Shown: positions 19,849 through 38,945 of the stretch, in pieces | Position numbering within the stretch: position 1 is the first letter of the stretch | How the letters are laid out: each line of letters begins with the position of its first letter | NCBI GenBank assembly: GCA_043825615.1 | Contig: JBDRRS010000003.1 | Location: 125,379-189,378, forward strand | From: a bacterium | GTDB lineage: Bacteria; CG03 | Reading direction: 5' to 3' | DNA length: 64,000 bases | Notes under the pieces: model-generated | Seen by the model: the letters and a program-made list of their open reading frames with translations, nothing else | What the model was told of the DNA's origin: nothing | Database searches by the model: none | Translations under genes and position numbers: made by a program

Positions 19849-19890
19849 AATTCTATTATATCAATATATCAATTTCCTGCAAGCACGGGT

Positions 19891-19941
19891 CCAAGCATGG
19901 GGTCATCCAAGCATGGGGTCCATGCATCCAAGCATGGGGTC
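19891..19941 (+). repeat. tandem repeat, three copies of CCAAGCATGGGGTC
   Basis: Read directly: copies at 19891, 19907, 19928. Confidence 0.7.
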
Positions 19942-19956
19942 AGGTCTTGCAATGCA
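19936..19956 (+). repeat. REP-like element GGGGTCAGGTCTTGCAATGCA (forward)
   Basis: Same 18-mer at 35744 and inverted at 20006 and 36612. Confidence 0.7.
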
Positions 19957-20005
19957 ACAGTTATTGAAGGAAATTGAGGAGTTTATGAAGGAAATTAATG
20001 TGTTA

Positions 20006-20023
20006 ATGCAAGACCTGACCCCC
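20006..20023 (-). repeat. REP-like element (inverted copy), with 19936-19956 forms a REP doublet
   Basis: ATGCAAGACCTGACCCCC is the reverse complement of the REP core; ~50 bp from the partner. Confidence 0.7.
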
Positions 20024-20024
20024 A

Positions 20025-20828
20025 CTATGACCCCACTATTTTGAGCATTTGTTTGTGGAGAAGCATGTTGCTGCAGAGAATTGTTTTGTCTTTATTTTCA
20101 TACTTTCCGTCAATTGATATTTCTTTTCCCGAATAGTCCGTGACTTTTCCTCCCGCTTCCTCTATCAGGATTTTCCCGGCGCCGGTGTCCCACGGGAACA
20201 AACCTTCCTCCCAGAAACCGTCAAACCTTCCGCAGGCGACATACGCCATATCAAGGGTGGCCGAACCCGGTCTTCTGATGCCCTGGGCGTTTACGACAAA
20301 TTTTTTGAATAACTCGACCGTTCTCAGGGGGTTTTTCCATACGTAATAAGGGAACCCCGTGGAAATAAGGGCTCTTTTCATTTTCTTTATGCCGGAGACC
20401 TTTATTTTCTTCCCGTTGAGAAAAGAGCCCTTCCCCGCCGCAGCAAAAAAGATTTCCCCGTTCGCCGGATTGTAAGTTACGCCGATAACAGGCGTTCCGT
20501 TCCTGACGAGGGAGACGCTCACCGCCCACATTCTGCCGCCGTGCGAGTAGTTGACGGTCCCGTCTATAGGGTCAATGACCCACATCGTTTCCTTTATTTT
20601 CTGAAAGGTTCTCTCCTCGCACAGGAAACCGGCGCTGCAGAGTTTGGAGAGTTCTTTGACGAGGAATTTTTCGCATCTTTTATCAGCGTCGGTTACGGGA
20701 TTGATTCGCCCCTTGTATTCGATACGGATTTTTTTTTGTCCGGCCTGCGCAAGGCGGCCGGCTTTTACGAGGACGGGCAGAACCTGTTTGAGTATTTTGC
20801 CGTAATTGATAATTCTATTTTTTGACAA
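20025..20828 (-). CDS. inositol monophosphatase family protein
   Basis: WVIDPIDGT and FPWDTGAG motifs. Confidence 0.85.
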   Translation of the reverse strand: MSKNRIINYGKILKQVLPVLVKAGRLAQAGQKKIRIEYKGRINPVTDADKRCEKFLVKELSKLCSAGFLCEERTFQKIKETMWVIDPIDGTVNYSHGGRMWAVSVSLVRNGTPVIGVTYNPANGEIFFAAAGKGSFLNGKKIKVSGIKKMKRALISTGFPYYVWKNPLRTVELFKKFVVNAQGIRRPGSATLDMAYVACGRFDGFWEEGLFPWDTGAGKILIEEAGGKVTDYSGKEISIDGKYENKDKTILCSNMLLHKQMLKIVGS

Positions 20829-23078: not shown

Positions 23079-23121
23079 CCGGACATTTCAACACTGAACA
23101 TTTTGACATTACTTTTATTTT

Positions 23122-23895: not shown

Positions 23896-24013
23896 AAACA
23901 CCTCCTGAATTACCCTAATTTTATTAAAATATCCGGTCAAGGTCAAATTTTTTAAAAGATGGTTTTCTGCGGGATGTTAAAATACGGAAAAATTCGGCTC
24001 AAAAGGTGTTTCC

Positions 24014-25663: not shown

Positions 25664-25977
25664 TTCTTCTATAATAAATTACCTCTTTATTGTGTTGAAG
25701 TCAATATTTGGTTGTTGTTACACAATTACGGTTTACCCTGCACCACGGCTTGACAACCGCGGCTTTTGGGGTGATACCCTTCGGGATTTCATATTCATTC
25801 ATCCGCAGGTTTACACTCTCTGCTTTCTGGCTGTGCGGGATAAACCTGTTTGGAAGTGGGAAATAAAGACGGAAGAACAATTAGCGGGTATCTCCTGTTT
25901 TTCGTCAGCCTTTTTTGCTTTATGTTTTGTTTTTTTTTGAAAACTTGCTAAAATGTAAAAGTTCAGTGAACGGCGTG

Positions 25978-26063
25978 TCATTGCGAGGGAATGACTGCCT
26001 GCCGAAGGCAGGCGAGACCGAAGCCCGCCTGAGGCGGGCCACGCCCTTCGGGCTCGCAATGAC
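25978..26063. repeat. 86-bp GC-rich palindromic element, 11-bp terminal inverted repeats GTCATTGCGAG / CTCGCAATGAC
   Basis: Read directly; internal sub-hairpins GCCTGCCgaaGGCAGGC and GCCCGCCtgaGGCGGGC; partial relative at 10491-10510. Confidence 0.55.
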
Positions 26064-26103
26064 AAATACGGTTTTCGCTGAATATTTATGCTAAAATAAA
26101 GCA

Positions 26104-26577
26104 ATGAAAGTCAAAGACGTGATGCTGAAAGATGTTGTGACCGTGAGAAGGTCCACTAACCTCGGGCAGCTTCTGGAGATTTTCGGGAAATTTCACATAT
26201 CGCCGGTGCTTCCCGTTATTGACAACGCGGGGAACCTTATCGGCACGATTACGCTTGAGAACGTTATAGAGCAGTTCAGCAATATCCCCGCGCACTTTTC
26301 AAGAGCTGCGAAGTACGCTTCTCATGATGATATGACAATCAGCGAGCTGCTGACCGCGGACATACCGAAAGATGCGGCGACGCTCTTTCTCGTCGACGAT
26401 CTCCTGTCGGAAATACCCATAACAATTTCACAGGACGCCGGCGTCATGGAAGCGGAGAGAATGATGAAACTCAACCGCGTTGAAATAATTCCCGTCGTGG
26501 ACGGGAAAAAATTCGCCGGCGTCGTCACGAAGTTCGACATTGTCCTCGGAATTCTGAAAGAAAAAGGAATTGTCTGA
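26104..26577 (+). CDS. CBS-pair domain protein
   Basis: Two CBS-like units (VVTV...IGTIT; IIPVVD...AGVVT). Confidence 0.75.
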   Translation: MKVKDVMLKDVVTVRRSTNLGQLLEIFGKFHISPVLPVIDNAGNLIGTITLENVIEQFSNIPAHFSRAAKYASHDDMTISELLTADIPKDAATLFLVDDLLSEIPITISQDAGVMEAERMMKLNRVEIIPVVDGKKFAGVVTKFDIVLGILKEKGIV

Positions 26578-26586
26578 TACCTGGAT

Positions 26587-27756
26587 ATGCACATACTTTT
26601 CAGTTTCGGCATAATTCTTTTCGGAGCATGGTCTGCGGGAAAAATCATAAAATATATCGGACTCCCCCTCGTTACGGCTTATATAATTTTCGGTATTGTG
26701 ATGGGGCCTGACATTCTGAATCTCGTTCACGGAAATTTTATCACCGCCTCGCCGCTTATTTCCAGCATCGGGCTCGGTTTTATCGCTTTCAACATCGGGC
26801 AGAATTTTGTCTGGGAAAACATAAAGCGGCTCGGTAAAATGGTCATCTGGATATCCTGCCTTGAGGCGTTTATGGCGTGGATTTTCGTAACTCTGGGAGT
26901 CCATTTTCTGGCCGGTATGAACTGGGCGACTTCAATCTGCCTCGGGGCTCTCGCTTCCGCTACGGCGCCGGCGGCGACGATGATGGTTATAAGGGAATAC
27001 AAAGCGTCGGGCCTTTTTACGAACACTCTCCTCGGGGTTGTGGCGCTGGACGACGCGTGGTGTCTGGTAATAATATCAATAGCGATCGCCGTTACCAAAG
27101 CCGTCTCGCTTCATGGCGCGGGAAATACCGTAATACTCAATGCGTTCTTTCACTCGATAGGCAGTATTACGGGGGCGTGTCTGGTCGGCGCGCTTCTCAC
27201 GGTGATGATAAAAAAAATATCCATTTTTGTCGTAACGCGGGATAATCTCCTGATTTTTATGCTGAGTTTCCTTTTCATAGGGATCGGCGCTTCCGAAATG
27301 TTTCATTTTCCCCTTCTCCTGACCTGCATGATAATGGGCGCCGTACTCGCCAATATTACGCGGGAGACGAAGTTTTTTGACGTCCTGCACGAGGTGGACG
27401 CACCGGTTTATCTGCTCTTCTTTGTGCTCGCCGGCGCGAATTTGAAAATAGCGCAGCTCGGAACAATCGGAATCGTCGGCATCGTTTATTTCTTTGTAAG
27501 AGTGGCGGGGAAATTTTCGGGGTCTTATCTGGGAAGCGTTATCTCGGATGCGCCCGTCAGAATCAGAAAATATATCTGGCTGGGGCTTGTCCCGCAGGCG
27601 GGCGTCGCTCTGGGAGCGGCTCTTATGGTGCGCGACCGGTTTCCTCTTGTCGGCGAAACAATTTTTACGACGGTTGTCGCAACAACGGTTCTTTACGAAC
27701 TGGTGGGACCTCTCTGCACGAAATTATCTCTCCGGAAAGCCGGCGAAATCCTGTAA
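26587..27756 (+). CDS. cation:proton antiporter (Na+/H+ exchanger family)
   Basis: Polytopic membrane protein; N-terminal GLPLVTAYIIFGIVMGPDILNLV typical of CPA/KefB-type exchangers. Confidence 0.75.
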   Translation: MHILFSFGIILFGAWSAGKIIKYIGLPLVTAYIIFGIVMGPDILNLVHGNFITASPLISSIGLGFIAFNIGQNFVWENIKRLGKMVIWISCLEAFMAWIFVTLGVHFLAGMNWATSICLGALASATAPAATMMVIREYKASGLFTNTLLGVVALDDAWCLVIISIAIAVTKAVSLHGAGNTVILNAFFHSIGSITGACLVGALLTVMIKKISIFVVTRDNLLIFMLSFLFIGIGASEMFHFPLLLTCMIMGAVLANITRETKFFDVLHEVDAPVYLLFFVLAGANLKIAQLGTIGIVGIVYFFVRVAGKFSGSYLGSVISDAPVRIRKYIWLGLVPQAGVALGAALMVRDRFPLVGETIFTTVVATTVLYELVGPLCTKLSLRKAGEIL

Positions 27757-27862
27757 ACATCTGTCTCTCCGTTAAATGCGTACTATAATCCTGGCGCCGT
27801 GACTGAACAGTAAGCAGTACGGAATCAATAAATCCCAAATAAACTTAAAATTCTACTCCCAA

Positions 27863-29149
27863 TTACTTGGAAAAATGTTTCTGACTTGCAGCCAGCCCGT
27901 CTTCAAGCGACTCTTCCATCGTTGAGTACTTCCAGCCGCCGAACCTTCCGGTTGATATTATTTTGTGTTTTTTGAGGAACCCGAAAATTTTGGGCAGGAC
28001 CTTTTCCCTTTCATTATCGTAAATGACATAAGCGAACGGGATGTTCAGGTCTTTTTGGACGAGGATGCTTTTCTCCGTGAGGCGCAGAAATTCAAGAATT
28101 TTTTTTACCGTCATTTCCGCCTTCCCGTCCCGGAATGATTCCTCTACGTAAATGTTCGAGAACCGCTCCGGCACGCTGCCGAAATTGGACAGGAAACCGA
28201 TTCTGTAAAACGGGAATTTCTTTTCGGGAAAATAAATCCAGTGCCCCATTTCCGAAAAATTCTTTTTTAAAACGAGGTTCGTGTTTTTCACGCCCGCCCA
28301 CTTTAATTTCTTTGAAAGTTTCCGCATTTCCGGACAGCCGTTCAGACGGTTCAGGAGAACGGGCAGAGGGATTGTGGATATGATTTCGTCATAGGATATT
28401 TTGCCGTTTCCTGTAAATATTATTTTTTTATTCAGGTCGATTGATTTTACTCCCGCTCCGAAAATTATGTTTTTCCCTTTTGCCAGCGGCTTTATGATTT
28501 CGCTGATTCCTCCTCTTTCCGGGTAATAAAACGAGGCGTTGTAACCTCCCGTCTGCTCCGGGTTGCGCCGCGCGGCTCCTTTGAGTATCAGACCTTTCGA
28601 AGGCGGCGGCACGAATCTCCCCATCCACAGGGTGCTCATTTTTCTCAAGTCGTATTTCCAGAGTTTCCTGTTATACGGCTCAAAAAAGAGGCGGAACATT
28701 CTTTCACCGAAGGAATTCTTAGCCCAGTCGTAAAAACTGCCGCGGGCCGGCTCTCCCCTGCCGGCAAGGAAGTCCTTTACGCATTTGGTTTTTTCCTTTT
28801 GCGGCAGGTAGGCGAGATGATACTGGAAGGGATAGGGGACAGACCCGTCCAGCAGATGTATTGACGCGGAGCGCGAATGTTTTTTCAGAGGGACTTTCAG
28901 TTCCGACGTTATAAAACGCTTCCAATCCTTATCCTTCGCAGGGTGGCGTGATGTCGTCTGCTTTTTATTTTTGAAATGCAGGAGGTGTCCGGTGTAATCA
29001 AAGAAAAAACCGTTTTTCTTCTCGGTTCGGCAGAGCCCACCAGCTTCGCTTTCTTTTTCAAGGACGAGCGGTTTTATTTTTCTTTTTACAAGGAAATGCG
29101 CTGCGGAAAGGCCGGTGAGCCCCGCCCCGAGAATCACGATTTTTTTCAC
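27863..29149 (-). CDS. NAD(P)/FAD-dependent oxidoreductase (UDP-galactopyranose mutase / amine-oxidase-like)
   Basis: N-terminal Rossmann VILGAGLTGLSAA...E...GG. Confidence 0.65.
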   Translation of the reverse strand: MKKIVILGAGLTGLSAAHFLVKRKIKPLVLEKESEAGGLCRTEKKNGFFFDYTGHLLHFKNKKQTTSRHPAKDKDWKRFITSELKVPLKKHSRSASIHLLDGSVPYPFQYHLAYLPQKEKTKCVKDFLAGRGEPARGSFYDWAKNSFGERMFRLFFEPYNRKLWKYDLRKMSTLWMGRFVPPPSKGLILKGAARRNPEQTGGYNASFYYPERGGISEIIKPLAKGKNIIFGAGVKSIDLNKKIIFTGNGKISYDEIISTIPLPVLLNRLNGCPEMRKLSKKLKWAGVKNTNLVLKKNFSEMGHWIYFPEKKFPFYRIGFLSNFGSVPERFSNIYVEESFRDGKAEMTVKKILEFLRLTEKSILVQKDLNIPFAYVIYDNEREKVLPKIFGFLKKHKIISTGRFGGWKYSTMEESLEDGLAASQKHFSK

Positions 29150-32025
29150 CAGTTCACTCCCAGCCGGAAATACGATTCATATTCCTTATCCCGCAGAGTC
29201 CTTGCCCTGTCAAAAGAAATAAAGAGAGGATAACTCTGAAAAAGGAGCGCGTTCAGCCGGAAACCGAACCCGAAGGAGTGCCTGAGATTTTCTTTCCCCC
29301 ACTCGCTGCTTTTTGAGAAAACCTCTCCCGCATCGTAAAAAATAACCCCTTTCAAACTCTTGAAATACATCGGAGGTATCAGCCACCAGACATTATAGTC
29401 AATATCAGGAAAAACGTAAAACCTGTATTCGGCGGAGCCGAGAGCGAGCCGGCTCTCGTCGGGCACGCCGCTTAAGCCACGGACCATGTTCCACCGCGTG
29501 ATGTCGAAAAGTTCCGGCGTTTCGCCCCACGAGAAAAGACCGAGAAGCCGCAGGGCAAAAATGTGGTTCGGGAAAACAATAGGGGCAAAAAACTGTTCTT
29601 CAAAATAAACCGATTTGTACTGGAAATCGCCGCCGAGACGTTTCCCCGACTGCGCAAAACTCAGGTTGGCTCTCCTCCCTTTTACGATGTCCATAAACCT
29701 GTAAATGCTGAAATCCCTGACGAGAGAGAGGACGTAAGCGTTTTCAAACGTTTCGTAATAGTCGTTTTCCTCCCAGTCAAGCAGGTCTTTGTTTCTTTCC
29801 CGCGCGAGCATCAGTTCCAGCCGGTTGTTTTTGTCGAGGGGTCTTGTGAAAAAAAGGCCGAAAGCGTCTTTTCTGCTGTCCTCTTTCATCACCTCGGCCG
29901 CGTCTTCGTCATCTCCGGGGATGCTCCATCTTGTTTCTCTCGAGCCGCCCGTAAAAAAACCGGCGTTCGTTTTCCATTTCTTGCACAGGTAGGAAAAAGA
30001 ATAATTCATGTCTCTCGTCGCCGACAGCCACTGGAGATAGAGAGAGGCATTGTGGTTGCCGGTGATATCGGACGCCTGCATGTAATTCAAAACATAGAAT
30101 TCCACGTCTCCCTCGGAAAAAGCGAACATCGCGAGAGGGTAAACCAGGTCAAAAGACCACCGTGTTTTGTATTTTCTGAAGTCATAGGGCAGGACTTCAG
30201 ACGGTTCCGGCGGTTTCTCTTTTTCCTTTTTCATTTCGATTCCCGCAGTAAAATTTTCATCCTGCGTTTCAGGGGCATGTCTCCGCAAAGCAGGTTTTAT
30301 ATCCTCGATGTCAATTCCTCTTTTGAGAAAGGCATCGTCAATGACTGACGATGAACCGGCGTGCGCTGAATCCGCCGTTGCCGGAGGTGAATCAAAAACA
30401 TAAATCTGCCGGGAACCTTCCCACTGGATTACGGCGGCAATTTCATTGTTTTTTGAAACCGCGAAATCCGTAACGCCTGTTTTAATGAACGTCATATTTT
30501 CCGCCTCGTCGAAATTTGAGGAGGAATATCTTATTCTGAAAATATCGCTGAAAGAATTTCTGTCGCTTATGAAATACAGGTGTTTCCCGAGAAGATGCGG
30601 AGTTTTTTCGTCAAAGGACGTGTCTGTAAGCCATGTTTTTTTGAAAGATGAAAGCGATATTTCTCTCAGGTCAAGTTCCTGCCTGCGTTCGCAGGAATAG
30701 ATGATTTTCTGTTCGCCGGGAATTACCGTAAAGGAGTGTTCAAAGTCGTCGTCGTCCGTAATGTTTGAGATTTTTCCTTCGTTCCAGAGGAATATGTCGC
30801 TCCTGCAAGACAGGTCCCCAGCCATCAGGAGAGAACCGTCGTTAAGGGCTTCAATCTGTCTTACCTCGGTGAAAGGGATGGGGATTTCGAGAAACTTTTT
30901 ATTTTCATAAAAGACCAGATGGTGTTTTCCGTCCTTCCACGCGGTAAAAATGAGCCGGTTCCCGTAATAAGCGAAAGAGTCCCCTACATTGTCAAAATAA
31001 TTCTTTTTTCTTTTTAAAAGACGTTTCTGCTTTCCGCTTTTCACGTCCTTTATCACAATTTCGTCGTAGCCGTATCCGTCGGAAACGAACGCAATTTTAC
31101 CGTCAAAGAAAAAAGGGCTTCTCGCCCGGTAGAACCGGAAATCCGGGGAAATCATCCGCCCGAGTTTTTCCGGAGCGTTTCTTTCATCGGTCGCTTTTTT
31201 ATACTGTCCGTCCAGATATTCTTCGAACAAAGCGTCGAATCTGCGCGAACCGGTATCAAACGTTTTTCTCATCGCGATGTTCTGTTCCCATATCTGCGGG
31301 AATTGTTTTACGAGTTCGAGAACTTTATTTTTGCCGTATTTCCGCGCGATAAAAATCATCATTTTCTGCGACTGCTTATAAGCAAGGTAGACGCGGTAGC
31401 CCTCAAGGTGAGAGAAGGAAAGCAGGTCCTCCGAAGGGACGAGCAAGCCGTGCAGGTAGATATCCCGGAGAGCTGCGGCGTCTTCCCCGTCCCAGATGTC
31501 GGATGAAAATTCGGCAAGGCCCTCCTGTATCCAGAGAGGAATGGGATATATCATAAGGCGCACGAGTGAAATCGACCGCCAGAAACCGCCGTAGAAAATT
31601 TCAAAACTCGCGACGTGCGTGTATTCGTGCTGGAGGATGTGCCTCATTTCCCGGGGCGAAGTATAGTAAGGCAGCACAAACCTGTTCTTAAACGCCTCCG
31701 CAAAACCGCCTGTCCCCCACGACACGGGGGCTATCCTGTTCGAATGAAAGTCAGGGTGGTCTTCAAAGAAAAAAAAGAACGGTTTTTTCCGCGGGCTTAC
31801 GTTGAGAAATTCAAACGTTTCGTCGTGGGTTTTTTCAAGCATTTGCGATATCAAAGCCGTCTTATGAGAAATCTGCGGGTAGTGGAAAATCGTAAAATGT
31901 TCCGTTTCGCAGGTGCTCCATTCGAAGTTCTGCGTATATGTCTGATTTTTTCCGAATTCGAGACCGGAAACCGCCGACGATATTAAAAGTGCAAAAATGC
32001 CGTAAAGTGAAACTTTACATTTCAC
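29146..32025 (-). CDS. large secreted protein: N-terminal HExxH metallopeptidase-like region, TolB-like beta-propeller, C-terminal Omp85/BamA-like beta-barrel
   Basis: Signal peptide; HEYTHV zinc-binding motif; C-terminal FYDAGEVF...FGFGFRLN; 4-nt overlap with upstream oxidoreductase gene. Confidence 0.5.
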   Translation of the reverse strand: MKCKVSLYGIFALLISSAVSGLEFGKNQTYTQNFEWSTCETEHFTIFHYPQISHKTALISQMLEKTHDETFEFLNVSPRKKPFFFFFEDHPDFHSNRIAPVSWGTGGFAEAFKNRFVLPYYTSPREMRHILQHEYTHVASFEIFYGGFWRSISLVRLMIYPIPLWIQEGLAEFSSDIWDGEDAAALRDIYLHGLLVPSEDLLSFSHLEGYRVYLAYKQSQKMMIFIARKYGKNKVLELVKQFPQIWEQNIAMRKTFDTGSRRFDALFEEYLDGQYKKATDERNAPEKLGRMISPDFRFYRARSPFFFDGKIAFVSDGYGYDEIVIKDVKSGKQKRLLKRKKNYFDNVGDSFAYYGNRLIFTAWKDGKHHLVFYENKKFLEIPIPFTEVRQIEALNDGSLLMAGDLSCRSDIFLWNEGKISNITDDDDFEHSFTVIPGEQKIIYSCERRQELDLREISLSSFKKTWLTDTSFDEKTPHLLGKHLYFISDRNSFSDIFRIRYSSSNFDEAENMTFIKTGVTDFAVSKNNEIAAVIQWEGSRQIYVFDSPPATADSAHAGSSSVIDDAFLKRGIDIEDIKPALRRHAPETQDENFTAGIEMKKEKEKPPEPSEVLPYDFRKYKTRWSFDLVYPLAMFAFSEGDVEFYVLNYMQASDITGNHNASLYLQWLSATRDMNYSFSYLCKKWKTNAGFFTGGSRETRWSIPGDDEDAAEVMKEDSRKDAFGLFFTRPLDKNNRLELMLARERNKDLLDWEENDYYETFENAYVLSLVRDFSIYRFMDIVKGRRANLSFAQSGKRLGGDFQYKSVYFEEQFFAPIVFPNHIFALRLLGLFSWGETPELFDITRWNMVRGLSGVPDESRLALGSAEYRFYVFPDIDYNVWWLIPPMYFKSLKGVIFYDAGEVFSKSSEWGKENLRHSFGFGFRLNALLFQSYPLFISFDRARTLRDKEYESYFRLGVNW

Positions 32026-32027
32026 AA

Positions 32028-33659
32028 TTATTCTTTCTTGAGAATGTCTCCGATGCTGAAACCCGCGGATTCCGAAGAATAATATTGCTGCATCGTTTCG
32101 TTTTCTTTCTGTTTTTCCAGTTCCTTTATGCTGAGTTCTACCATCCTTAAGTTTTCGTTTACCTTTACGACAACCGCTTCAATTTTCTGACCTTCGGAAA
32201 AGGCGGAAAGGTTTTCGGTTTTTCCCGCCTCAATCTGCGAAATGTGGATAAAACCCGTTATTCCGTCCGGAAGGTCCATTATAAGTTTATCCGTATCAAC
32301 TTTGGCGACCGTGCCGGTTACGTTCCGCCCTGAAACGTAATTTTTAAAAGGGCTGTCTTCTATCTGTTTCAGGCCCAGATAAATTTTTTGTTCCTCAACG
32401 CTGATGCTCAGAATTTTTGCGGAGACCTGCTGGTCGACACACAAGATGTCCGCGGGATGGGAAATTCTTTCTTTCCATGAAAAATCCTTCAGCAGAATAA
32501 AACCCTCTGCGGCATCCGGAAGTTCCACAACGGCGCCGTTCTTCGTAAGATGGGTAACCCTGCCTTCAATTGTTTCCCCGACGGAATGTTTCGCGGTAAA
32601 GCTCTGCCATGGATTTTCCTGCGTGTTCTTCAGGCTCAGGGATATTCTTTTGTTTTCATGGTCGCTCTTTAACACCATTACTTCTATTGTCTGGCCTTCT
32701 TTCAGGACCTCGGCTGTCTTGAGATTTCTTTTCCAGGACAGTTCGCTTATGTGCAGGAGCCCCTCAAGACCCGGCTCAAGTTCAACAAAAGCTCCGTACT
32801 CTACAACGCCTCTTACAACGCCGTTGTGTATGCTGCCGACAGGGTATTTCTTTTCGACTTTTTCCCATGGGTGAGATTTTGTTTCTCTTAAACTCAGGGA
32901 AACCCTGTTTTCCGTTTTGTTCAGTTTTGTAATCTTGACTTCTATTTCCTGCCCGATTTTCAATTCGTCGGAAACCCTTTCCGTCCTGCCCCACGAGATG
33001 TCCTTTATGTGAAGAAGGCCTTCAAATCCTCCTATGTCCACAAATGCGCCGAATTTGGTAATGCCTTTTACGACGCCTTTTTTTATTTCGCCCTCGCGCA
33101 CCTCGGACCAGAATTTTTCCTGAAGCTTTTTATATTCCGGTTCGACCACGTCCCTCCACGAGACGACAATATCGTTTTTAATTCTGTTGAATTTCTTTAT
33201 TTTCACGGGGACGTCCTGCCCTATGGTTTCTTTTATTTTTCTGACGGGAGGATAACCTATCTGCGAGTTCGGCATAAATGCCTCAATCCCGTTGATTTTG
33301 GCTTTTACGCCGCCTTTAATCTGCTCAACAATTCTGGCGGTGACGGTTTCCCCTTTTTCAAACGCCTGCTCAATGTCGTATATCGCCTTGTTCTTCTGCG
33401 CTCGACGGCACGACAGCGTCGGGGAACCGCCGGTTCCGGACATATCAATTATGTATACGTCTATGTCCTGCCCGACGGAAATATCGCTCACCTCAGATAT
33501 TTCCGAAAGGGGAATTACGCCTTCGGCTTTTCCCCCGATATCCACCAAAACGCCGTCCGGACTGGAAACGTCAAGCACTTTTCCCTTGACGATTTTCCCC
33601 GCCGCAAGTTTTGGAATGGCATTCACAACTTCATCCATCAGATTCTTTGACTCACTCAT
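32028..33659 (-). CDS. rpsA: 30S ribosomal protein S1
   Basis: Multiple S1 domains (G..V.G.V......G..V..G....G..H.SE). Confidence 0.9.
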   Translation of the reverse strand: MSESKNLMDEVVNAIPKLAAGKIVKGKVLDVSSPDGVLVDIGGKAEGVIPLSEISEVSDISVGQDIDVYIIDMSGTGGSPTLSCRRAQKNKAIYDIEQAFEKGETVTARIVEQIKGGVKAKINGIEAFMPNSQIGYPPVRKIKETIGQDVPVKIKKFNRIKNDIVVSWRDVVEPEYKKLQEKFWSEVREGEIKKGVVKGITKFGAFVDIGGFEGLLHIKDISWGRTERVSDELKIGQEIEVKITKLNKTENRVSLSLRETKSHPWEKVEKKYPVGSIHNGVVRGVVEYGAFVELEPGLEGLLHISELSWKRNLKTAEVLKEGQTIEVMVLKSDHENKRISLSLKNTQENPWQSFTAKHSVGETIEGRVTHLTKNGAVVELPDAAEGFILLKDFSWKERISHPADILCVDQQVSAKILSISVEEQKIYLGLKQIEDSPFKNYVSGRNVTGTVAKVDTDKLIMDLPDGITGFIHISQIEAGKTENLSAFSEGQKIEAVVVKVNENLRMVELSIKELEKQKENETMQQYYSSESAGFSIGDILKKE

Positions 33660-34543
33660 CTTACCACCTTTTTATAAACGCATTTCTCAATTTCTAAAAC
33701 CAGCTCTCTCGGAGAGGAAGCTCCCGATGTAATTCCGATCGGGCGGCTTATTTTTTTTCCTCTCAAGTCGTTTACCCCTGCAATTATTTCAGCTGGGCAG
33801 ATACGCCTGACAATTTTTGCGAGGTTCACCGTATTGCTGCTTTTTTTATCACCGACTATTATAACCGATTTAGAAATTTTTGCAAGTTCTTTCGCCTCAA
33901 CCCGCCGCTCCTTTGCTTCTCTGCATATTGTGTTTATTATGCGCGCTCCGGGAATTTTGCCGCGAAGGACGCCCGAAATTTCAAGAAACCTGCTGTCGGT
34001 TATTGTTGACTGGCAGATCACGGCGGTTTTTTTCTTTTTGGTGCGCCGGGCGGGTTGTGCTTTGAAATTTTCGGCAGCCGCTTTATTTTCGACAATCACG
34101 GAGCCGCGCCCCGCATGCGAGATGAGCGCCTTAACCTCCGCGTGCAGAGGGTTGCCTATGATAACGATTGAGTAATCCGACTTTTTCAGTTTTTCAAGAG
34201 TCAGATGTATTTTTTTGAGAATAGGGCAGGTGAAATCGAAAATTCTGCAGTTTTTTTTCTTTAAGGTGTTTATCGTTTTCAGAGGAAGTCCGTGAGCCCG
34301 TATAATTACGTCTGACTTTGCAGGAATGGCCGTTGGTTTCTTTACGATGATGAGACCTTTTTTTGCGAGGTCTATCATAACGAAAGAGTTGTGCACGAGG
34401 TCGCCTATGCAGTAGACTTTTTTATGCAGCAGGAGTTTTTTTGTTTTTTTTACCGCTATCGTTACGCCGCTGCAGAAACCGGCAAATCCCGCAACTTTTA
34501 TAGCGGGCGTCCACGTATCAGCGGGCGTTTTTTTCAATGCCAT
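33656..34543 (-). CDS. ispH: 4-hydroxy-3-methylbut-2-enyl diphosphate reductase
   Basis: LytB-type motifs incl. GDLVHNS and IVGDKKSSNT. Confidence 0.85.
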   Translation of the reverse strand: MALKKTPADTWTPAIKVAGFAGFCSGVTIAVKKTKKLLLHKKVYCIGDLVHNSFVMIDLAKKGLIIVKKPTAIPAKSDVIIRAHGLPLKTINTLKKKNCRIFDFTCPILKKIHLTLEKLKKSDYSIVIIGNPLHAEVKALISHAGRGSVIVENKAAAENFKAQPARRTKKKKTAVICQSTITDSRFLEISGVLRGKIPGARIINTICREAKERRVEAKELAKISKSVIIVGDKKSSNTVNLAKIVRRICPAEIIAGVNDLRGKKISRPIGITSGASSPRELVLEIEKCVYKKVVR

Positions 34544-35096
34544 CTTTTATCCTCTCACAAATTTTTTCGGAAACTTCACGCGTGTAAGGCATTTTTCTCT
34601 CCGGGAAATCAACAGGGTTGCCGAATTTAACGGAAAACCTTTTAAGGTTTTTCCATTCGTTTGTCCCTTTTATGAAGACGGGAATAACCGGTTTTTCCGT
34701 GCGGTAAATAATATAAGACACGGCTCGCCGTATCTTTTTGACTTTGCCGTCGCCCGTTTTATTCCTTGTACCCTCGGGAAACACGAGTAAATTTTTACCG
34801 GAATTCACTATTTCCACGGCTTTTCTGAATGCGCTCCTGTCAAAAAGATTTCTGTCCACGGGAAAAGCGCCGAGTTTTTTCAGAAAAAATGCGATTACAG
34901 GGTTATAAAAAAGTTCTTTCTTCGCCATAAAATGAAGTCTCCGGAACGTTGAAGCCGCTATTACGGGAGGGTCACAGTTGGAAAGGTGGTTTGAGCAGAG
35001 AATTACGCCTCCTCCGGGGATGATGCCTGAAACTTTCAGCCGGAAAAAAATTCCTCCGGCAAACAGGGACAAAACCCATGCAATCAAATAAATCAT
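34518..35096 (-). CDS. plsC: 1-acyl-sn-glycerol-3-phosphate acyltransferase
   Basis: NHLSNCD (NHxxxxD) and FPEGTR motifs. Confidence 0.8.
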   Translation of the reverse strand: MIYLIAWVLSLFAGGIFFRLKVSGIIPGGGVILCSNHLSNCDPPVIAASTFRRLHFMAKKELFYNPVIAFFLKKLGAFPVDRNLFDRSAFRKAVEIVNSGKNLLVFPEGTRNKTGDGKVKKIRRAVSYIIYRTEKPVIPVFIKGTNEWKNLKRFSVKFGNPVDFPERKMPYTREVSEKICERIKDGIEKNAR

Positions 35097-35764
35097 TTTT
35101 TCCCGCTTTTTTCTGCAACCTCTTTTATAATGATGTCCGCAACTTCTTCAATGCTTTTGTTCGTTGAATCTATCACCGTCGCCCCCGCCGGAATTTTCAG
35201 CGGGCAGAGCCCCCTTGTTTTGTCAATGTTGTCTCTTTTGTTTATGTCGGCTATGATGCGCTCTAAAATCTGCGGGTTTCCTTTTTCCTTTAATTCCAGA
35301 AATCTTCTTTTCGCTCGTTCGCTAATGCTGGCGTCGAGATAAAACTTAAATCGGGCGCGAGGGAACACGACCGTTCCGATGTCGCGGCCTTCCATGACCA
35401 CGCCCGATTTTTCCGCAAATTGCCGCTGCATGTCGCGGAGAATCCGGCGGACTTCCCCGCTTGCCGCCGTTATGGAAGTGCGGTTCGTAACGGTTCTCGA
35501 CCTGATTTTGCGGGAGACGTCCTCCCCGTCCAGTAATATTTTCTGTTTATCGAACCGTATTCTGGAACCTGCGGCGATTCCGCACATTTTTTTCGGATCC
35601 GTCATGTCGATTTTATTTTTCAGCGCCTTGTATGTTACCGCCCTGTACATTGCGCCTGTGTCTATATAGGTTAAGCCGAGTTTCTCTGCCACGATGCGGG
35701 CTATCGTGCTCTTCCCCGCCCCCGCCGGCCCGTCTATTGTAATGGGGTCAGGTCTTGCAATCAT
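35093..35764 (-). CDS. cmk: cytidylate kinase (annotated start lies inside REP-like repeat; true start uncertain)
   Basis: ITIDGPAGAGKST P-loop typical of Cmk; first codons ATGATTGCAAGACCTGACCCC coincide with REP core. Confidence 0.85.
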   Translation of the reverse strand: MIARPDPITIDGPAGAGKSTIARIVAEKLGLTYIDTGAMYRAVTYKALKNKIDMTDPKKMCGIAAGSRIRFDKQKILLDGEDVSRKIRSRTVTNRTSITAASGEVRRILRDMQRQFAEKSGVVMEGRDIGTVVFPRARFKFYLDASISERAKRRFLELKEKGNPQILERIIADINKRDNIDKTRGLCPLKIPAGATVIDSTNKSIEEVADIIIKEVAEKSGKK

Positions 35765-36629
35765 ACATTTTCTCTATGCGCCGTAATCTGCGGCTCACTG
35801 TAGCATAATGCACGCCAAGATATTCCGCTATTTCTTTCATACAGTACCTGTATTTTTCATAGGCTTCCACTATGGCATTATCACTGTTCTTTCTCAATAT
35901 CACCCTCAGCGGTTTACGCTTTGGTTCCTGCTGAATCCTCGGTATTTCTTTAATCCTTTCTTTTTTCGATATTTTTTTGATAAATTTATCATCACCGTAA
36001 TATATCTGCCCTTTTAATTTTTCCCATACCGTTTTACCCACTCCCTCTTTAACAAACTTATAATATTTTTCTACCCCTTTTTTTTGATTATTGTCGAACT
36101 GCTTTAATATCCAATCTGTCGTCAGCCAATCCGGGCACTCTTCCAATCCCAGCATTGCCCGATACGCGCTCCATTTCCAATCTTCAACCCTTTTTACTAT
36201 CCCTGCTCGCACTGAATTCAACACTATATATCTGCTTAGTTCCAGTAAATGCTCATTTTTCTGCACAACTATTGCTTTATATCTGCCCTGAAACAAATGC
36301 CCAACACGGCTATGCATCTTGTTAAACCGCTGTGTATACACTCCATTTAACTGCCGCATTCCTCCTGATAAATTACCTTCAGGCGTCTCTACCAATAAAT
36401 GATAATGATTGGTCATCAAATTATATGAATGGCATAACCATTTATAACGCTTTATCGTTTTTTCAAGTATCCGCAGGAACTCTTTACGGTCACTGTCATT
36501 GTAATATATACTCCGCTTTGCGTTACCTCGTGCTGTAATATGGTATATTGCCCCGGGATATTCTATTCTTAGCGGCCTAGCCATATTTCAACTTACCTTT
36601 TATTTTGTTGCATTGCAAGACCTGACCCC
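35744..36629 (-). mobile_element. REP-flanked RAYT unit inserted between aroA and cmk
   Basis: GGGGTCAGGTCTTGCAAT at 35744-35761 and its reverse complement at 36612-36629 bracket the RAYT gene. Confidence 0.7.
35748..36584 (-). CDS. REP-associated tyrosine transposase (IS200-like Y1 HUH transposase family) with C-terminal HTH
   Basis: GAIYHITARGN, HuH motif NHYHLLV, GHLFQGRYK, ELSRYIVLNSVRAG; C-terminal HTH-like IAEYLGVHYATVSRRL. Confidence 0.85.
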   Translation of the reverse strand: MARPLRIEYPGAIYHITARGNAKRSIYYNDSDRKEFLRILEKTIKRYKWLCHSYNLMTNHYHLLVETPEGNLSGGMRQLNGVYTQRFNKMHSRVGHLFQGRYKAIVVQKNEHLLELSRYIVLNSVRAGIVKRVEDWKWSAYRAMLGLEECPDWLTTDWILKQFDNNQKKGVEKYYKFVKEGVGKTVWEKLKGQIYYGDDKFIKKISKKERIKEIPRIQQEPKRKPLRVILRKNSDNAIVEAYEKYRYCMKEIAEYLGVHYATVSRRLRRIEKMYDCKT

Positions 36630-37883
36630 TTCCAGGGTTTTCAGAAAACCGGGGAAAGAAACGGAGATGCTGTCTGCGTCATCTATCAGCGTGCTTCCGC
36701 GGGCTATCAGACCGGCGAGGGAAAGCATCATTGTTATCCTGTGGTCGCCGAAACTTCGTACGCCGGCGCCGGAAAGTTTTACCGGCCCGGAAATTTCAAA
36801 ACCGTCCTCTAATTTTTTTATTTTTGCGCCCATTTTTTTTAATTGGGAATAAGTCGCTTCAAGCCGGTCGCACTCTTTCACTTTCAATTCTCCGGCGCCT
36901 GTTATAACCGTTTTACCCTCCGCCTGTGTTGCGCACAGGGCAAGAAGCGGGATTTCATCAATCATCGCAGGAACGTCTTTTTCGGTAAATTCCGCCGCAC
37001 GGAGGGAGCTTTCCGCAACGATTATGTCCGCCACGGGCTCCAGACCGAAGAACTTCCTGTTAGTTATTTTATACCTCAGCCCCATTTTCCGGATGGCTTT
37101 TAAGAACCCCGTCCTCGTCGGGTTTATTCCGACTTCTTTTATTTTTAAGTTGCTTTTAAGGATTGCCGCCGCTGTTATGAAAAAAGACGCGGATGAAATA
37201 TCGCCGGGGATTTTTACTTCTGCGCTCTTCGGTTTCTGCCCGCCTTTTAATTCCACCCTGCCGGATTTTTTTGTTACTTTTACGCCGAAAAGCGGAAGCA
37301 TTCTTTCGGTGTGGTCGCGTGATTTTATTTTTTCGAAAATCTTCGTCGTGCCCGCGGCGTTGAGACCCGCCAGAAGAATGGACGTTTTTACCTGAGCGGA
37401 GGCGATGGGCATTCTGTAGGATATTGCCTTGAGTGTTTTTCCTTTTATAACAAGCGGCGGGAAACCGCTCCTGCTGATAATTTTTGCGCCCATCTTTTCC
37501 AGCGGCGCGGTGATTCTTTTCATAGGCCGGCGAGAGAGAGACCTGTCGCCCGTGAGGGTTGCCGAAACGGGCAGACCTGCAATCAGACCTGCGAGGAGAC
37601 GCATCGTCGTTCCGGAGTTCCCGCAGTATATTTCCTTTCCGGGCGTTTTGTAAGGGTGCCCTGTTATCAGAAGGTCGAAGCCCGATTTTTTTACGCCGGC
37701 TCCGAGCGAGGAAACCGCTTTCAGCGTCGAAAGAGTGTCGTCGCTTTTCAGAAAATTTTTAATTCTTGAAGTTCCTGAAGCAGTCGAGGAAATAATTACC
37801 GCTCTGTGCGAAATGGATTTATCCGGCGGGACTCTTATTTCACCTGATATTCTTTTTACGGGTCTTATTCTCAAACCCTTCAT
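36600..37883 (-). CDS. aroA: 3-phosphoshikimate 1-carboxyvinyltransferase (EPSP synthase)
   Basis: GNSGTTMRLLAGL motif; length 427 aa; last codons overlap REP-like repeat. Confidence 0.9.
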   Translation of the reverse strand: MKGLRIRPVKRISGEIRVPPDKSISHRAVIISSTASGTSRIKNFLKSDDTLSTLKAVSSLGAGVKKSGFDLLITGHPYKTPGKEIYCGNSGTTMRLLAGLIAGLPVSATLTGDRSLSRRPMKRITAPLEKMGAKIISRSGFPPLVIKGKTLKAISYRMPIASAQVKTSILLAGLNAAGTTKIFEKIKSRDHTERMLPLFGVKVTKKSGRVELKGGQKPKSAEVKIPGDISSASFFITAAAILKSNLKIKEVGINPTRTGFLKAIRKMGLRYKITNRKFFGLEPVADIIVAESSLRAAEFTEKDVPAMIDEIPLLALCATQAEGKTVITGAGELKVKECDRLEATYSQLKKMGAKIKKLEDGFEISGPVKLSGAGVRSFGDHRITMMLSLAGLIARGSTLIDDADSISVSFPGFLKTLEGVRSCNATK

Positions 37884-38712
37884 AAGCGTTCCTGATATCG
37901 TTCAGTTTTTTCAAGAGGCGGCGGTCGTTTATATCCTTTTTAAAATTATCCAGCGTTCCGGAAAACTTTTGTATATGCCTGTTTATTTCCGTCCTGTTCT
38001 GCTTAAAAATGGCGTTCCACAAAAACGGGCTGCTTTTTGAAACCCGCGTCATGTTTTTGAAACTCCCCGCAATGAATGCAGGGGATATTTTACTTCTTTT
38101 CAGATAACTTAAAAACATTTCCGTAAAGCAGAATGAGATAACGTGGGGAAGATGGCTCGTCAGAGCGGCGAATTCGTCGTGTTTATCCGGACGGACGATG
38201 GAGCAGACCGCGCCTAAACCGCTCCAGAATTTTTTCACTTTTTCCAATGCGTCCTTACCGGTGCCCTTCACCGGCGTCAGCAGGACGTTCGTCCCGCGGA
38301 AGAGGTCTCCCCTGCTGTTTATGCAGCCGCTTTTTTCCGAACCCGCCATCGGATGACAGCCGACAAATTCAATCCCGTGTTTTTTCGCGAAGGGATGGAT
38401 TTCCCTGCAGATTTTTTCTTTTACGCTTCCAGCGTCAATGAGGATTGAACCCTTTTTCATAAAAGGGATTATGCGCTTTGAAATTTTTACGATTACGTCG
38501 ACGGGCGTGCAGACGGCCACGATGCCGCAGCCTCCCGCTTTTGAAAAGTCGGCCGAAAAGACATCGCAGACCCCTTCCCTTTTCGCAATCCGGAGCCGGT
38601 CTTTGTTCCTGCCGAAGCAGACAACGTCTTTTCCGCGGGATGTGTAAAATTTACCGATTGACCCGCCGATAAGCCCCGGCCCCACAATCCCGATTTTATT
38701 AAACATAGCCAT
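37840..38712 (-). CDS. tyrA: prephenate dehydrogenase
   Basis: N-terminal Rossmann IGIVGPGLIGGSIG; family-typical length. Confidence 0.75.
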   Translation of the reverse strand: MAMFNKIGIVGPGLIGGSIGKFYTSRGKDVVCFGRNKDRLRIAKREGVCDVFSADFSKAGGCGIVAVCTPVDVIVKISKRIIPFMKKGSILIDAGSVKEKICREIHPFAKKHGIEFVGCHPMAGSEKSGCINSRGDLFRGTNVLLTPVKGTGKDALEKVKKFWSGLGAVCSIVRPDKHDEFAALTSHLPHVISFCFTEMFLSYLKRSKISPAFIAGSFKNMTRVSKSSPFLWNAIFKQNRTEINRHIQKFSGTLDNFKKDINDRRLLKKLNDIRNAYEGFENKTRKKNIR

Positions 38713-38786
38713 ATACTATAAAAAATATCACGAAAGGCAAAATCCGGTACCTGTCGGAAGTTCGTCGTATTTGAAAATGCAACTTC

Positions 38787-38945
38787 CTAAAACAGAGTAT
38801 AAATGAGAGGCGCCAGCGCCGAACCTTCAGTAAAAACGATTAATGCGCTTGTTACTATCAGGAAGATAAATATCGGCACCAGCCACCATTTCTTGCGGGT
38901 TTTCAGGAATTCCAGGTACTCTAATACTGTCGCTAATTTTTTCAT
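38787..38945 (-). CDS. small membrane protein, DUF5989-like (52 aa, not in ORF track)
   Basis: Translated by hand: MKKLATVLEYLEFLKTRKKWWLVPIFIFLIVTSALIVFTEGSALAPLIYTLF; same gene-order context as carbamoyltransferase/SGNH clusters. Confidence 0.5.
   Translation of the reverse strand: MKKLATVLEYLEFLKTRKKWWLVPIFIFLIVTSALIVFTEGSALAPLIYTLF

What the first reader, a model, noticed from the sequence alone, without database searches (positions are those of the whole stretch)
35744..36629. RAYT (IS200-like Y1 transposase) inserted between aroA and cmk, with REP repeats overlapping three coding ends
The 278-aa protein has the HUH Y1-transposase signature (GAIYHITARGN, NHYHLLV, GHLFQGRYK, catalytic-Tyr region SRYIVLNSVRAG) plus a C-terminal HTH, and is bracketed by inverted copies of GGGGTCAGGTCTTGCAAT. 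The left repeat contains both the RAYT stop codon and the annotated cmk start (ATGATTGCAAGACCTGACCCC gives MIARPDP), and the right repeat encodes the last residues of aroA. The element therefore interrupts the conserved aroA-cmk-plsC-ispH-rpsA arrangement and may have remodelled the gene termini.
Basis: partly seen in the sequence, partly recalled or inferred. Interest (0 to 1): 0.6.

Follow-up and report, generated by a model that had tools for sequence, protein, structure and literature searches.

The report
TIR-flanked tyrosine transposase splitting aroA–cmk
A small mobile element of a named but barely studied kind (a "TIRtron": a RAYT-like tyrosine transposase gene between two 18-base inverted repeats) has landed exactly between two housekeeping genes, and its ends now supply the stop of one gene and the start of the other; this is a neat but ordinary case.

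Summary
Window 35744-36629 is an 886-bp unit with perfect 18-nt inverted repeats (GGGGTCAGGTCTTGCAAT) around a 278-aa HUH/Y1 protein with a C-terminal HTH.

The repeats are not REPs. Single arms do not fold, there is no GTAG tag, and the same 18-mer occurs across many phyla. The unit fits the published TIRYT/"TIRtron" class (Di Nocera 2013), which is TnpAY1 subclass 2.1 (Quentin 2018).

Empty sites in close relatives (L001, L002) show aroA and cmk overlapping by ATGA with no element. Here 35-50 nt of that junction are replaced.
- AroA now ends ...TLEGVRSCNATK* instead of ...TLRKLTK*.
- Cmk now starts MIARPDPI- from an ATG just inside the other repeat, 17 nt before the transposase stop.

A second, gene-less 87-bp repeat dimer at 19936-20022 is also a lineage-specific insertion (empty in L123).

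Three family-wide features emerged:
- The 18-mer sits 45-48 nt before the start codon in 6 of 6 homologues chosen by protein alone.
- The repeat appears to carry the -35 box of a promoter for a leaderless mRNA.
- Ends often show tandem "flank + GGGGTCA" stutters.

Verdict: a new member of a known kind, of moderate interest.

The parts
35744..36629 (-). Complete TIRtron, 886 bp: TIR, promoter region, TIRYT gene, TIR
   Evidence: Perfect 18-nt inverted repeats. Absent from the orthologous site in L001 and L002. GC is 39.4% against 43-50% for the operon genes.
36606..36629 (-). Gene-proximal (5') terminal inverted repeat. The 18-nt core is 36612-36629. It is identical over 24 nt to the left arm of the mini element. 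It also encodes AroA residues 419-426.
   Evidence: (pair I5, 24/24).
35744..35769 (+). Gene-distal (3') terminal inverted repeat. The 18-nt core is 35744-35761. It matches the right arm of the mini element at 23 of 26 positions. It holds the TIRYT stop (35748-35750), cmk codons 2-7 and, just inside the core, the cmk ATG (35762-35764).
   Evidence: (pair I7). Many homologues also end ...DCKT*, meaning their stop lies in the TIR.
35748..36584 (-). TIRYT gene, 278 aa: HUH (H60-Y61-H62), catalytic Tyr119 in RYIVLNSVRAG, C-terminal HTH around residues 235-277
   Evidence: Pfam and NCBIfam hits. Invariant columns in alignment A1. The AF2 model (pLDDT 79) best matches 4er8_A, the E. coli TnpA-REP, with TM 0.76.
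36590..36618 (-). Predicted promoter of the element: -35 TTGCAA (36613-36618, inside the TIR), 17-nt spacer, -10 TAAGTT (36590-36595), then the ATG 5 nt further on (leaderless mRNA predicted)
   Evidence: Inference from a family pattern. 12 of 19 gene-proximal TIRs have TAnnnT 16-18 nt after TTGCAW, against 9 of 190 other ends. The generic promoter scan did not flag it.
36600..37883 (-). aroA (EPSP synthase), 427 aa. The last 9 codons and the stop (36600-36629) are element sequence.
   Evidence: Relatives are 421-424 aa and end ...FLKTLRKLTK*.
35093..35764 (-). cmk (cytidylate kinase), 223 aa. The start codon and the first 7 codons (35744-35764) are element sequence. It overlaps the TIRYT 3' end by 17 nt.
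   Evidence: Relatives start MNNGLVRRKIIVTIDGP or MKNKIIVTIDGP.
19936..20022 (.). Gene-less 87-bp TIR dimer (mini element, MITE/REPIN-like). Both arms match the TIRtron ends beyond the 18-nt core.
   Evidence: As ssDNA it folds into a 16-bp-stem hairpin (dG -18.3, z -4.3). Absent from the orthologous site in L123.
19881..20034 (.). Whole block present in the window but absent in L123. It comprises the mini element plus junction 'stutter': CCAAGCATGGGGTC(A) in 3 copies on one side and [TAGT+GGGGTCA] followed by TAGT-G and the TIR on the other. The stutter provides the stop codon (20025-20027) of the IMPase/SuhB-like ORF. Boundaries are uncertain by a few nt.
   Evidence: The SuhB-like C-terminus changes from KIVAEN* in L123 to KIVGS* in the window.

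Best explanation
Window 35744-36629 is a complete 'TIRtron'. It is a gene for a TIR-associated tyrosine (HUH/Y1) transposase (TIRYT, TnpAY1 subclass 2.1: a RAYT-like catalytic domain plus a C-terminal helix-turn-helix) between two 18-bp terminal inverted repeats. Those repeats are nearly invariant across the whole protein family.

**Shown**
- In this lineage only, the element sits in the 4-bp-overlap junction of aroA and cmk, inside the tyrA-aroA-cmk-plsC-ispH-rpsA operon and in the same orientation as the operon.
- 35-50 nt of the old junction are gone.
- AroA now reads 9 codons into the element before stopping.
- Cmk now starts at an ATG directly inside the other repeat and reads out through it, 17 nt before the transposase stop.
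- A gene-less 87-bp dimer of the same repeats at 19936-20022 is a second lineage-specific insertion.

**Inferred**
- The Y1 enzyme cuts and rejoins DNA at the repeat tips without making target duplications. It moves both its own unit and gene-less dimers in trans.
- The HTH reads the invariant repeat.
- The repeat carries the -35 box of a promoter that makes a leaderless transposase mRNA. That promoter would also feed cmk and the genes downstream.
- cmk translation is coupled to the transposase ORF.
- Only insertions that left both essential genes with usable ends could survive. This is easy here because the repeat is open in 5 of 6 reading frames.
For: **Identity of the protein**
- Pfam Y1_Tnp 54.7 bits; NCBIfam REP_Tyr_transpos 79.8 bits against IS200 16.7 bits.
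- HUH and Tyr are invariant in 23 homologues.
- The AF2 model best matches 4er8_A, ahead of the ISDra2 and IS608 TnpA structures.

**Class**
- The repeat starts GGGGTCAG, which fits the GGGGWSAS motif that defines most TIRYT TIRs (PMC3733652).
- A C-terminal HTH is the mark of subclass 2.1 (PMC6006769).

**Insertion**
- L001 (AroA 89% identical) and L002 (82%) have the same operon with an aroA/cmk ATGA overlap and no element.
- L003 (93%) also ends AroA with RKLTK*.
- The element's GC and GC3 are lower than those of the operon genes.

**Mobility of the repeat**
- The mini element is absent from L123, whose SuhB-like protein is 92% identical.
- 103 of 119 loci with the 18-mer lack a TIRYT gene and mostly hold inverted dimers 30-125 nt apart.

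**Family-wide architecture**
- 6 of 6 homologues picked by protein alone (54-58% identity) have the 18-mer, with 0-2 mismatches, 45-48 nt before the ATG.
- Promoter pattern: 12 of 19 against 9 of 190.

**No target duplication**
- The flanks of both window copies and of the census pairs I read by eye share no direct repeat.
Against: - No experiment shows that any TIRYT transposes or cleaves DNA. The mechanism is carried over from IS608, ISDra2 and TnpA-REP.
- The insertion is not clean. 35-50 nt of target are missing, which a simple Y1 insertion does not explain, so a second event (a deletion, or recombination) must be assumed.
- The NCBIfam hit is 0.2 bits under its cutoff, and the HTH Pfam hits are all just under theirs.
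- The -10 in the window copy (TAAGTT) is weak, and the generic scan did not call a promoter.
- Only one gene copy and one dimer are visible in 64 kb, and the copy number in the rest of the genome is unknown.
- The window protein departs from the family at three nearly invariant positions (N55, S124, A140), so it may not be active.
Confidence: 0.85

Rival explanations
1. A classical RAYT/REPIN system: a domesticated single-copy RAYT flanked by REP palindromes that it spreads as REPIN doublets.
For: The catalytic domain is closest to RAYTs. The gene is single-copy in the window. The 87-bp dimer folds into a long hairpin like a REPIN.
Against: - Single arms are not palindromic and carry no GTAG tag.
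- The 18-mer is shared across phyla rather than being lineage-specific.
- A C-terminal HTH is present.
- Quentin et al. found no REPs next to subclass 2.1 genes.
- The whole gene-plus-repeats unit is itself a recent insertion, unlike vertically inherited RAYTs.
Confidence: 0.07
2. The element split an ancestral bifunctional aroA-cmk fusion gene. Removing 35744-36629 joins AroA E418 to Cmk I8 in frame.
For: The frame arithmetic holds. Natural AroA-Cmk fusions of 613-709 aa exist (NCBIfam PRK11860).
Against: The ten best AroA relatives (59-93% identity) are stand-alone proteins of 421-438 aa. The fusions are only 38-46% identical and come from other phyla. L001 and L002 show two genes with an ATGA overlap. 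An in-frame join has a 1-in-3 chance of arising anyway.
Confidence: 0.02
3. The unit is no longer a transposon but a fixed, domesticated operon member. It is kept because cmk's start, aroA's stop and perhaps the promoter for cmk-plsC-ispH-rpsA now lie in it, or because the protein has a host function.
For: It has the same orientation as the operon, with a 15-nt gap to aroA and a 17-nt overlap with cmk. Loss by anything other than an exact, in-frame excision would damage two housekeeping genes. The protein is alone in its 90% cluster. It has three substitutions at nearly invariant positions.
Against: The repeats are still perfect (18/18) and match the mini element over 24 nt, which suggests recent activity. 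The insertion is younger than the split from a relative with 93% identical AroA. No host function is known for any TIRYT.
Confidence: 0.06

Closest known systems
TIRtron / TIRYT (Di Nocera, De Gregorio & Rocco 2013, BMC Genomics 14:522), equal to TnpAY1 subclass 2.1 (Quentin, Siguier, Chandler & Fichant 2018, BMC Genomics 19:475)
   Same: - RAYT-like Y1 gene flanked by long terminal inverted repeats that start GGGGWSAS.
- The repeat overlaps the 3' end of the gene.
- C-terminal HTH.
- Repeats also occur elsewhere as singles, dimers and clusters.
- Patchy distribution across many phyla.
   Different: Nothing contradicts membership. The following are not in those two papers as far as I read them:
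- the full 18-nt (about 26-nt) end is essentially invariant at about 50% protein identity;
- its distance to the ATG is fixed;
- a -35 box appears to sit in the repeat;
- junction stutters occur at the ends;
- a copy supplies the termini of two housekeeping genes.
RAYT / REP-REPIN systems (E. coli TnpA-REP, PDB 4ER8; Nunvar 2010; Bertels & Rainey 2011)
   Same: Best structural match for the catalytic domain (TM 0.76). HUH plus a single Tyr. Inverted doublets that can form hairpins. Usually one gene copy.
   Different: The repeats here are not self-complementary, have no GTAG, and are shared between phyla. The protein is about 110 aa longer and has an HTH. The gene-plus-repeat unit itself is a recent insertion.
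IS200/IS605 TnpA (IS608, ISDra2)
   Same: HUH/Y1 fold (Foldseek E around 1e-5). No target-site duplication seen.
   Different: Those elements have subterminal hairpins and no terminal inverted repeats, and their TnpA is 130-150 aa without an HTH. NCBIfam IS200 scores only 16.7 bits against a cutoff of 55.
Bacterial MITEs (e.g. RUP, NEMIS/Correia, ERIC)
   Same: The 87-bp dimer has terminal inverted repeats, no coding capacity, sits at gene ends, and its subterminal sequence resembles the ends of the full element.
   Different: MITEs are normally mobilised by DDE transposases and make target duplications. Here the presumed partner is a Y1 enzyme and no duplication of the classical kind is seen.

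Membership tests
TIRYT / TIRtron (TnpAY1 subclass 2.1) | Y1 HUH catalytic domain with an HUH motif and one catalytic Tyr, RAYT-like | tested here: met
   Pfam Y1_Tnp 54.7 bits. H60-Y61-H62 and Y119 are invariant in A1. Foldseek best match is 4er8_A.
TIRYT / TIRtron (TnpAY1 subclass 2.1) | Gene flanked by terminal inverted repeats rather than REP hairpins | tested here: met
   18/18 inverted repeats at 35744 and 36612. The arms do not fold on their own.
TIRYT / TIRtron (TnpAY1 subclass 2.1) | The TIR carries the GGGGWSAS motif (true of most, not all, TIRYTs) | tested here: met
   The TIR begins GGGGTCAG. The motif is taken from PMC3733652.
TIRYT / TIRtron (TnpAY1 subclass 2.1) | C-terminal HTH domain (Bac_DnaA_C, HTH_23 or HTH_28 type) | tested here: inconclusive
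   HTH_23 scores 23.7 bits against a cutoff of 24.6, and several other HTH models fall just under their cutoffs, all on residues 236-276. Three confident helices at 235-277 in the AF2 model. Only weak PDB HTH hits. The domain is very probably present but no curated cutoff is passed.
RAYT / REPIN | Flanking repeats are short imperfect palindromes (REPs), usually GTAG-tagged | tested here: not met
   Single arms give dG 0 to -1.5 kcal/mol, no better than shuffles. No GTAG at either end.
RAYT / REPIN | Repeat family is specific to a lineage and abundant (tens to hundreds of copies per genome) | tested here: not met
   The exact 18-mer occurs in many phyla, so the lineage-specificity part of the feature was tested and fails. 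The abundance part was not settled: there are only 4 arms in 64 kb, and the genome-wide count could not be obtained with these tools.
RAYT / REPIN | Passes the curated NCBIfam REP_Tyr_transpos equivalog model | tested here: not met
   79.8 bits against a cutoff of 80, covering only residues 6-139.
IS200/IS605 | Short TnpA matching the IS200 model; subterminal hairpins; no TIRs | tested here: not met
   NF033573 scores 16.7 bits against a cutoff of 55. The protein is 278 aa. The ends are TIRs.
Active transposon (any family) | Insertion polymorphism between close relatives | tested here: met
   Empty aroA-cmk site in L001 and L002. Empty suhB-downstream site in L123.
Active transposon (any family) | Demonstrated cleavage and strand transfer by the encoded protein | not testable with these tools
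   No biochemical data were found for any TIRYT. Only two papers use the term.

The most novel reading that the evidence does not exclude
TIRYT/TIR elements may be one pan-bacterial family of still-active Y1 transposons that do not recognise hairpins at their ends. They would instead recognise an invariant 18-26-nt sequence, read by the HTH, and nick 7 nt inside it (GGGGTCA^GG). Under this reading the recurrent exact tandem duplications of [9-10 nt of flank + GGGGTCA] at element ends are the scars of that reaction. This would be a transposition chemistry not described for HUH enzymes. In this genome the copy would then have become effectively un-losable, because aroA's stop, cmk's start and perhaps the promoter of four downstream housekeeping genes lie inside it.
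Probability: 0.2. Interest if true: 0.6.

Novelty: new member of a known kind. Interest (0 to 1): 0.4.

Why it matters
For this locus, the case is a clean, datable example of a mobile element rewriting the ends of two housekeeping genes inside an essential operon without destroying them. The evidence is a comparison of filled and empty sites.

For the family, TIRYTs are the largest subclass of Y1 "RAYT-like" proteins (Quentin 2018) and have no known mechanism. Three features seen here give concrete handles for biochemistry:
- the end sequence is invariant;
- it lies at a fixed distance from the start codon, with a -35 box apparently inside the repeat;
- junction stutters always end after GGGGTCA.

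These suggest which oligonucleotide to use, where to look for the nick, and which transcript to map.

Tried and rejected
1. **Split-fusion idea.** Exact removal of the element joins aroA and cmk in frame. I rejected an ancestral fusion because the nearest AroA relatives are stand-alone proteins and the empty sites show two genes.
2. **Rfam scan of 19000-38000 at E up to 1.** Only two chance-level hits, none at the repeats.
3. **Full-text search for the repeat sequence.** No paper.
4. **phmmer of the protein against PDB sequences.** Nothing at E up to 0.01. A 23-sequence profile gave only a weak 4er8 hit at E 0.079. Fold comparison was needed.
5. **Exact-protein contig look-up.** Not on record, so I could not read the rest of the source contig.
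6. **Genome-wide census in the source genome.** The census is therefore across genomes, not within this one.
7. **Generic sigma-70 and terminator scan of 35000-38900.** Counts were at shuffle level and it did not flag the TIR-embedded promoter.
8. **Classical target-site duplications.** I looked for them by eye at both window copies and at a number of census pairs and saw none. The A-rich bases just outside the tips are symmetric, not direct repeats.
9. **Extra diverged repeat copies in the window, up to 5 mismatches.** None beyond chance.
Full report
**1. What is in the sequence**

On the minus strand the window carries the operon tyrA (37840-38712), aroA (36600-37883), a 278-aa ORF (35748-36584), cmk (35093-35764), plsC, ispH and rpsA.

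- Pfam Y1_Tnp scores 54.7 bits against a cutoff of 23.
- A cluster of HTH models falls just under cutoff on residues 236-276.
- NCBIfam REP_Tyr_transpos scores 79.8 bits against a cutoff of 80, while the IS200 model scores only 16.7 against 55.
- cmk and aroA are unambiguous (TIGR00017 248 bits, TIGR01356 424 bits).

GGGGTCAGGTCTTGCAAT occurs exactly at 35744-35761 (+) and 36612-36629 (-). It occurs again at 19936-19953 (+) and 20005-20022 (-, one mismatch). That is 4 matches against 0.06 expected.

The transposase stop lies in the left repeat. cmk codons 2-7 are the left repeat, and its ATG is the three bases just inside it. AroA residues 419-424 are the right repeat, and its last three codons and stop follow within the element.

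**2. The repeats are not ancestral coding sequence: empty sites**

I first noticed that deleting 35744-36629 joins AroA E418 to Cmk I8 in frame, and I asked whether the element had split a fusion gene. A search with that hypothetical fusion showed otherwise. The nearest AroA relatives (93, 89, 82 and 65% identity) are stand-alone proteins of 421-424 aa ending ...FPGFLKTLRKLTK*. Natural AroA-Cmk fusions are only 38-46% identical.

Two of the close relatives lie on long contigs with the same operon and no element (L001 and L002). Their aroA stop overlaps the cmk start as ATGA. Read on the gene strand:
- L001: AAAACCCTG-(50 nt)-ACAATAGACGGG
- L002: a 35-nt middle
- window: AAAACCCTG-GAA-[886-bp element]-ATT-ACAATAGACGGG

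So 35-50 nt of junction are replaced. The lost segment held the last five AroA codons, the stop, and the first 7-12 Cmk codons.
- AroA gained EGVRSCNATK.
- Cmk gained MIARPDPI in front of the conserved TIDGPAGAGKS P-loop.

The closest relative (L003, 93%) still has the RKLTK* end, so the insertion is recent. The element is also compositionally distinct, with GC 39.4% and GC3 0.405 against 43-50% and 0.46-0.59 for the operon genes.

**3. The second locus**

The pair at 19936-20022 is an 87-bp gene-less dimer. Its arms match the two ends of the large element beyond the core (24/24 and 23/26). As single-stranded DNA it forms a 16-bp-stem hairpin (dG -18.3, z -4.3).

A relative with a 92% identical IMPase/SuhB-like gene (L123) has an empty site. 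It reads AAAATAGTTGCAGAGAATTGATAT, where the window has AAAATAGT-[about 154 nt]-GCAGGAAATTGATAT. Here too a neighbour's end changed, from KIVAEN* to KIVGS*. Both repeat loci in the window are therefore lineage-specific insertions.

**4. What kind of element**

The protein has more than 8000 homologues. Nearly all are 275-290 aa with Y1_Tnp plus an HTH, at 55-61% identity, and they come from many candidate and classical phyla. The window protein (NCBI MFH1957009.1) is alone in its 90% cluster.

In a 23-sequence alignment the HUH triad and Tyr119 are invariant. An AlphaFold model (pLDDT 79) best matches the E. coli REP-associated transposase 4ER8 (E 1.3e-7, TM 0.76), followed by ISDra2 and IS608 TnpA.

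The literature already names this branch. Di Nocera et al. 2013 called RAYT-like genes flanked by long terminal inverted repeats 'TIRtrons' encoding 'TIRYTs'. They noted a shared GGGGWSAS motif, repeats overlapping the gene's 3' end, and repeat families occurring as dimers and clusters (PMC3733652). Quentin et al. 2018 equate this with TnpAY1 subclass 2.1. That is the largest subclass, it has a C-terminal HTH, and it has no REPs nearby (PMC6006769).

The window repeat starts GGGGTCAG. Single arms do not fold. The element is therefore a TIRtron, not a REP/REPIN system. Only these two papers use the term, and no mechanism has been published in the library I could search.

**5. Family-wide features found along the way**

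*(a) The exact 18-mer is widespread.* With W at position 17, it occurs in at least 119 stretches of species-representative genomes from Proteobacteria, Nitrospirota, Actinomycetota, Acidobacteriota, Rokubacteria, Chlorobi, Bipolaricaulota, Omnitrophota, Elusimicrobia, Parcubacteria and others. My own rough estimate of chance matches in 596 Gb is about 35.
- Most loci hold inverted dimers 30-125 nt apart.
- 16 loci hold a TIRYT gene that is 45-58% identical to the window's.

*(b) The repeat is present when homologues are chosen by protein alone.* To avoid ascertainment bias I took six homologues selected only by protein (54-58% identity). All six have the 18-mer, with 0-2 mismatches, starting 45-48 nt before the ATG. 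The 3' repeat is exact in two, degenerate in two and absent in two. The end is far better conserved than the protein. The consensus over 204 ends is GGGGTCAGGTCTTGCAWT-nnn-RCA-T.

*(c) The repeat appears to carry a -35 box.* The repeat contains TTGCAW at positions 12-17.
- In 12 of 19 gene-proximal repeats a TAnnnT hexamer follows after 16-18 nt, against 9 of 190 other ends.
- In nine of those the start codon lies 5-8 nt after the hexamer.
- This predicts a promoter with its -35 box in the repeat and a leaderless mRNA.
- In the window the elements are TTGCAA 36618-36613, TAAGTT 36595-36590 and ATG 36584. This is inference from pattern only, and the generic scan did not flag it.

*(d) Ends often carry a partial copy just outside.* 27 of 193 ends have a partial copy (GGGGTC or GGGTCA) within 45 nt outside, against a 1.6% background. 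In at least 16 of these the flank is repeated too, by 5-11 nt, giving tandem copies of [flank + GGGGTCA], exact in many cases, with a period of 12-21 nt. Both sides of the window's mini element show this. The inner edge of the duplication almost always falls after GGGGTCA. That suggests, but does not prove, a nick 7 nt inside the repeat.

*(e) Many homologues end ...DCKT\*.* In these the stop codon is inside the 3' repeat. The repeat is open in five of six reading frames (read directly from the sequence). This explains how it can be absorbed into neighbouring ORFs.

**6. How it most likely works**

*Shown:*
- A TIRtron and a gene-less dimer were inserted in this lineage.
- The neighbours' termini are now element-encoded.
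- The gene lies in operon orientation, 15 nt after the aroA stop, and overlaps cmk by 17 nt.

*Inferred from the HUH/Y1 families (IS608, ISDra2, TnpA-REP):*
- Tyr119 makes a covalent 5'-phosphotyrosine link at the repeat tips and rejoins the strands without target duplication.
- The HTH reads the invariant repeat.
- Gene-less dimers are moved in trans.

*Inferred here:*
- The element brings its own promoter, which would also drive cmk-plsC-ispH-rpsA.
- cmk translation is coupled to the transposase ORF.
- The missing 35-50 nt need a second event, either a deletion or a recombination.
- Selection kept only a configuration in which both housekeeping genes stayed intact.

**7. Rivals**
- A classical RAYT/REPIN system fails on the repeat properties.
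- The split-fusion idea fails on the empty sites.
- A fully domesticated, immobile copy cannot be excluded, but the perfect repeats and the recent date argue for recent activity.

**8. Verdict**

The finding is real and well observed, but it is mislabelled as REP/RAYT. It is a new member of a known, little-studied kind. The local story, in which gene termini are captured from a transposon end, is tidy but not surprising. The family-level regularities are the more useful by-product. Interest 0.4.

Noticed in passing
Window 19880-19935 and 20018-20040; also L005, L006, L011, L021, L036, L041, L042, L071, L081, L097, L102, L104, L112 and L208 (about 2390-2420): Exact tandem duplications of [5-11 nt of flank + GGGGTCA] lie just outside element ends, with a period of 12-21 nt. 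27 of 193 ends have a partial copy within 45 nt, against a 1.6% background. The inner boundary is nearly always after GGGGTCA, which may mark the cleavage site.
   Followed up: partly
L091 (2.6 kb), L007, L084, L032: The repeat also forms same-orientation arrays. L091 has 10 copies, all on one strand, within 2.6 kb. L007 and L084 have tandem units of 34 and 41 nt. I did not look at what lies between the L091 copies.
   Followed up: no
L203-L208 and 13 other TIRYT loci; window 36590-36618: The repeat contains a -35-like TTGCAW. A TAnnnT hexamer follows after 16-18 nt in 12 of 19 gene-proximal repeats (9 of 190 other ends), and the ATG lies 5-8 nt later. This predicts a leaderless transposase mRNA.
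   Followed up: partly
Window 35744-36629: Exact removal of the 886 bp would fuse AroA(1-418) to Cmk(8-223) in frame. Natural AroA-Cmk fusions exist in other phyla (P0131-P0182). This is probably a coincidence (1 in 3), but it means that a precise excision need not be lethal.
   Followed up: yes
L003 1700-1900: In the closest relative (AroA 93% identical, 2.2-kb contig) aroA is followed not by cmk but by a different ORF, 55 nt downstream. The aroA-cmk junction may therefore be rearranged independently in this clade.
   Followed up: no
Window 257-327, 7534-7604, 8205-8275, 13265-13335 (plus 1196-1232 and 2001-2037): A different repeat family of about 71 nt, in 4-6 copies at 62-82% identity, with an internal inverted repeat (ACGGTTCTG...CAGAACCGT) and a T-run. 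It is unrelated to the TIR and its nature is unknown.
   Followed up: no
Window 13556-14308 and 14518-15421: In-gene tandem repeats with periods of 99 nt and about 123-132 nt. They are presumably protein repeat domains.
   Followed up: no
Window 60394-60462 and 60544-60612: Two 69-nt direct repeats, 86% identical and 150 nt apart. Not examined.
   Followed up: no
Window 35748-36584 (protein positions 55, 124, 140): The window TIRYT has N55, S124 and A140 where at least 90% of 23 homologues have C, P and S. S124 is in the catalytic YxxLNPxRA motif. This may be noise or early decay.
   Followed up: no
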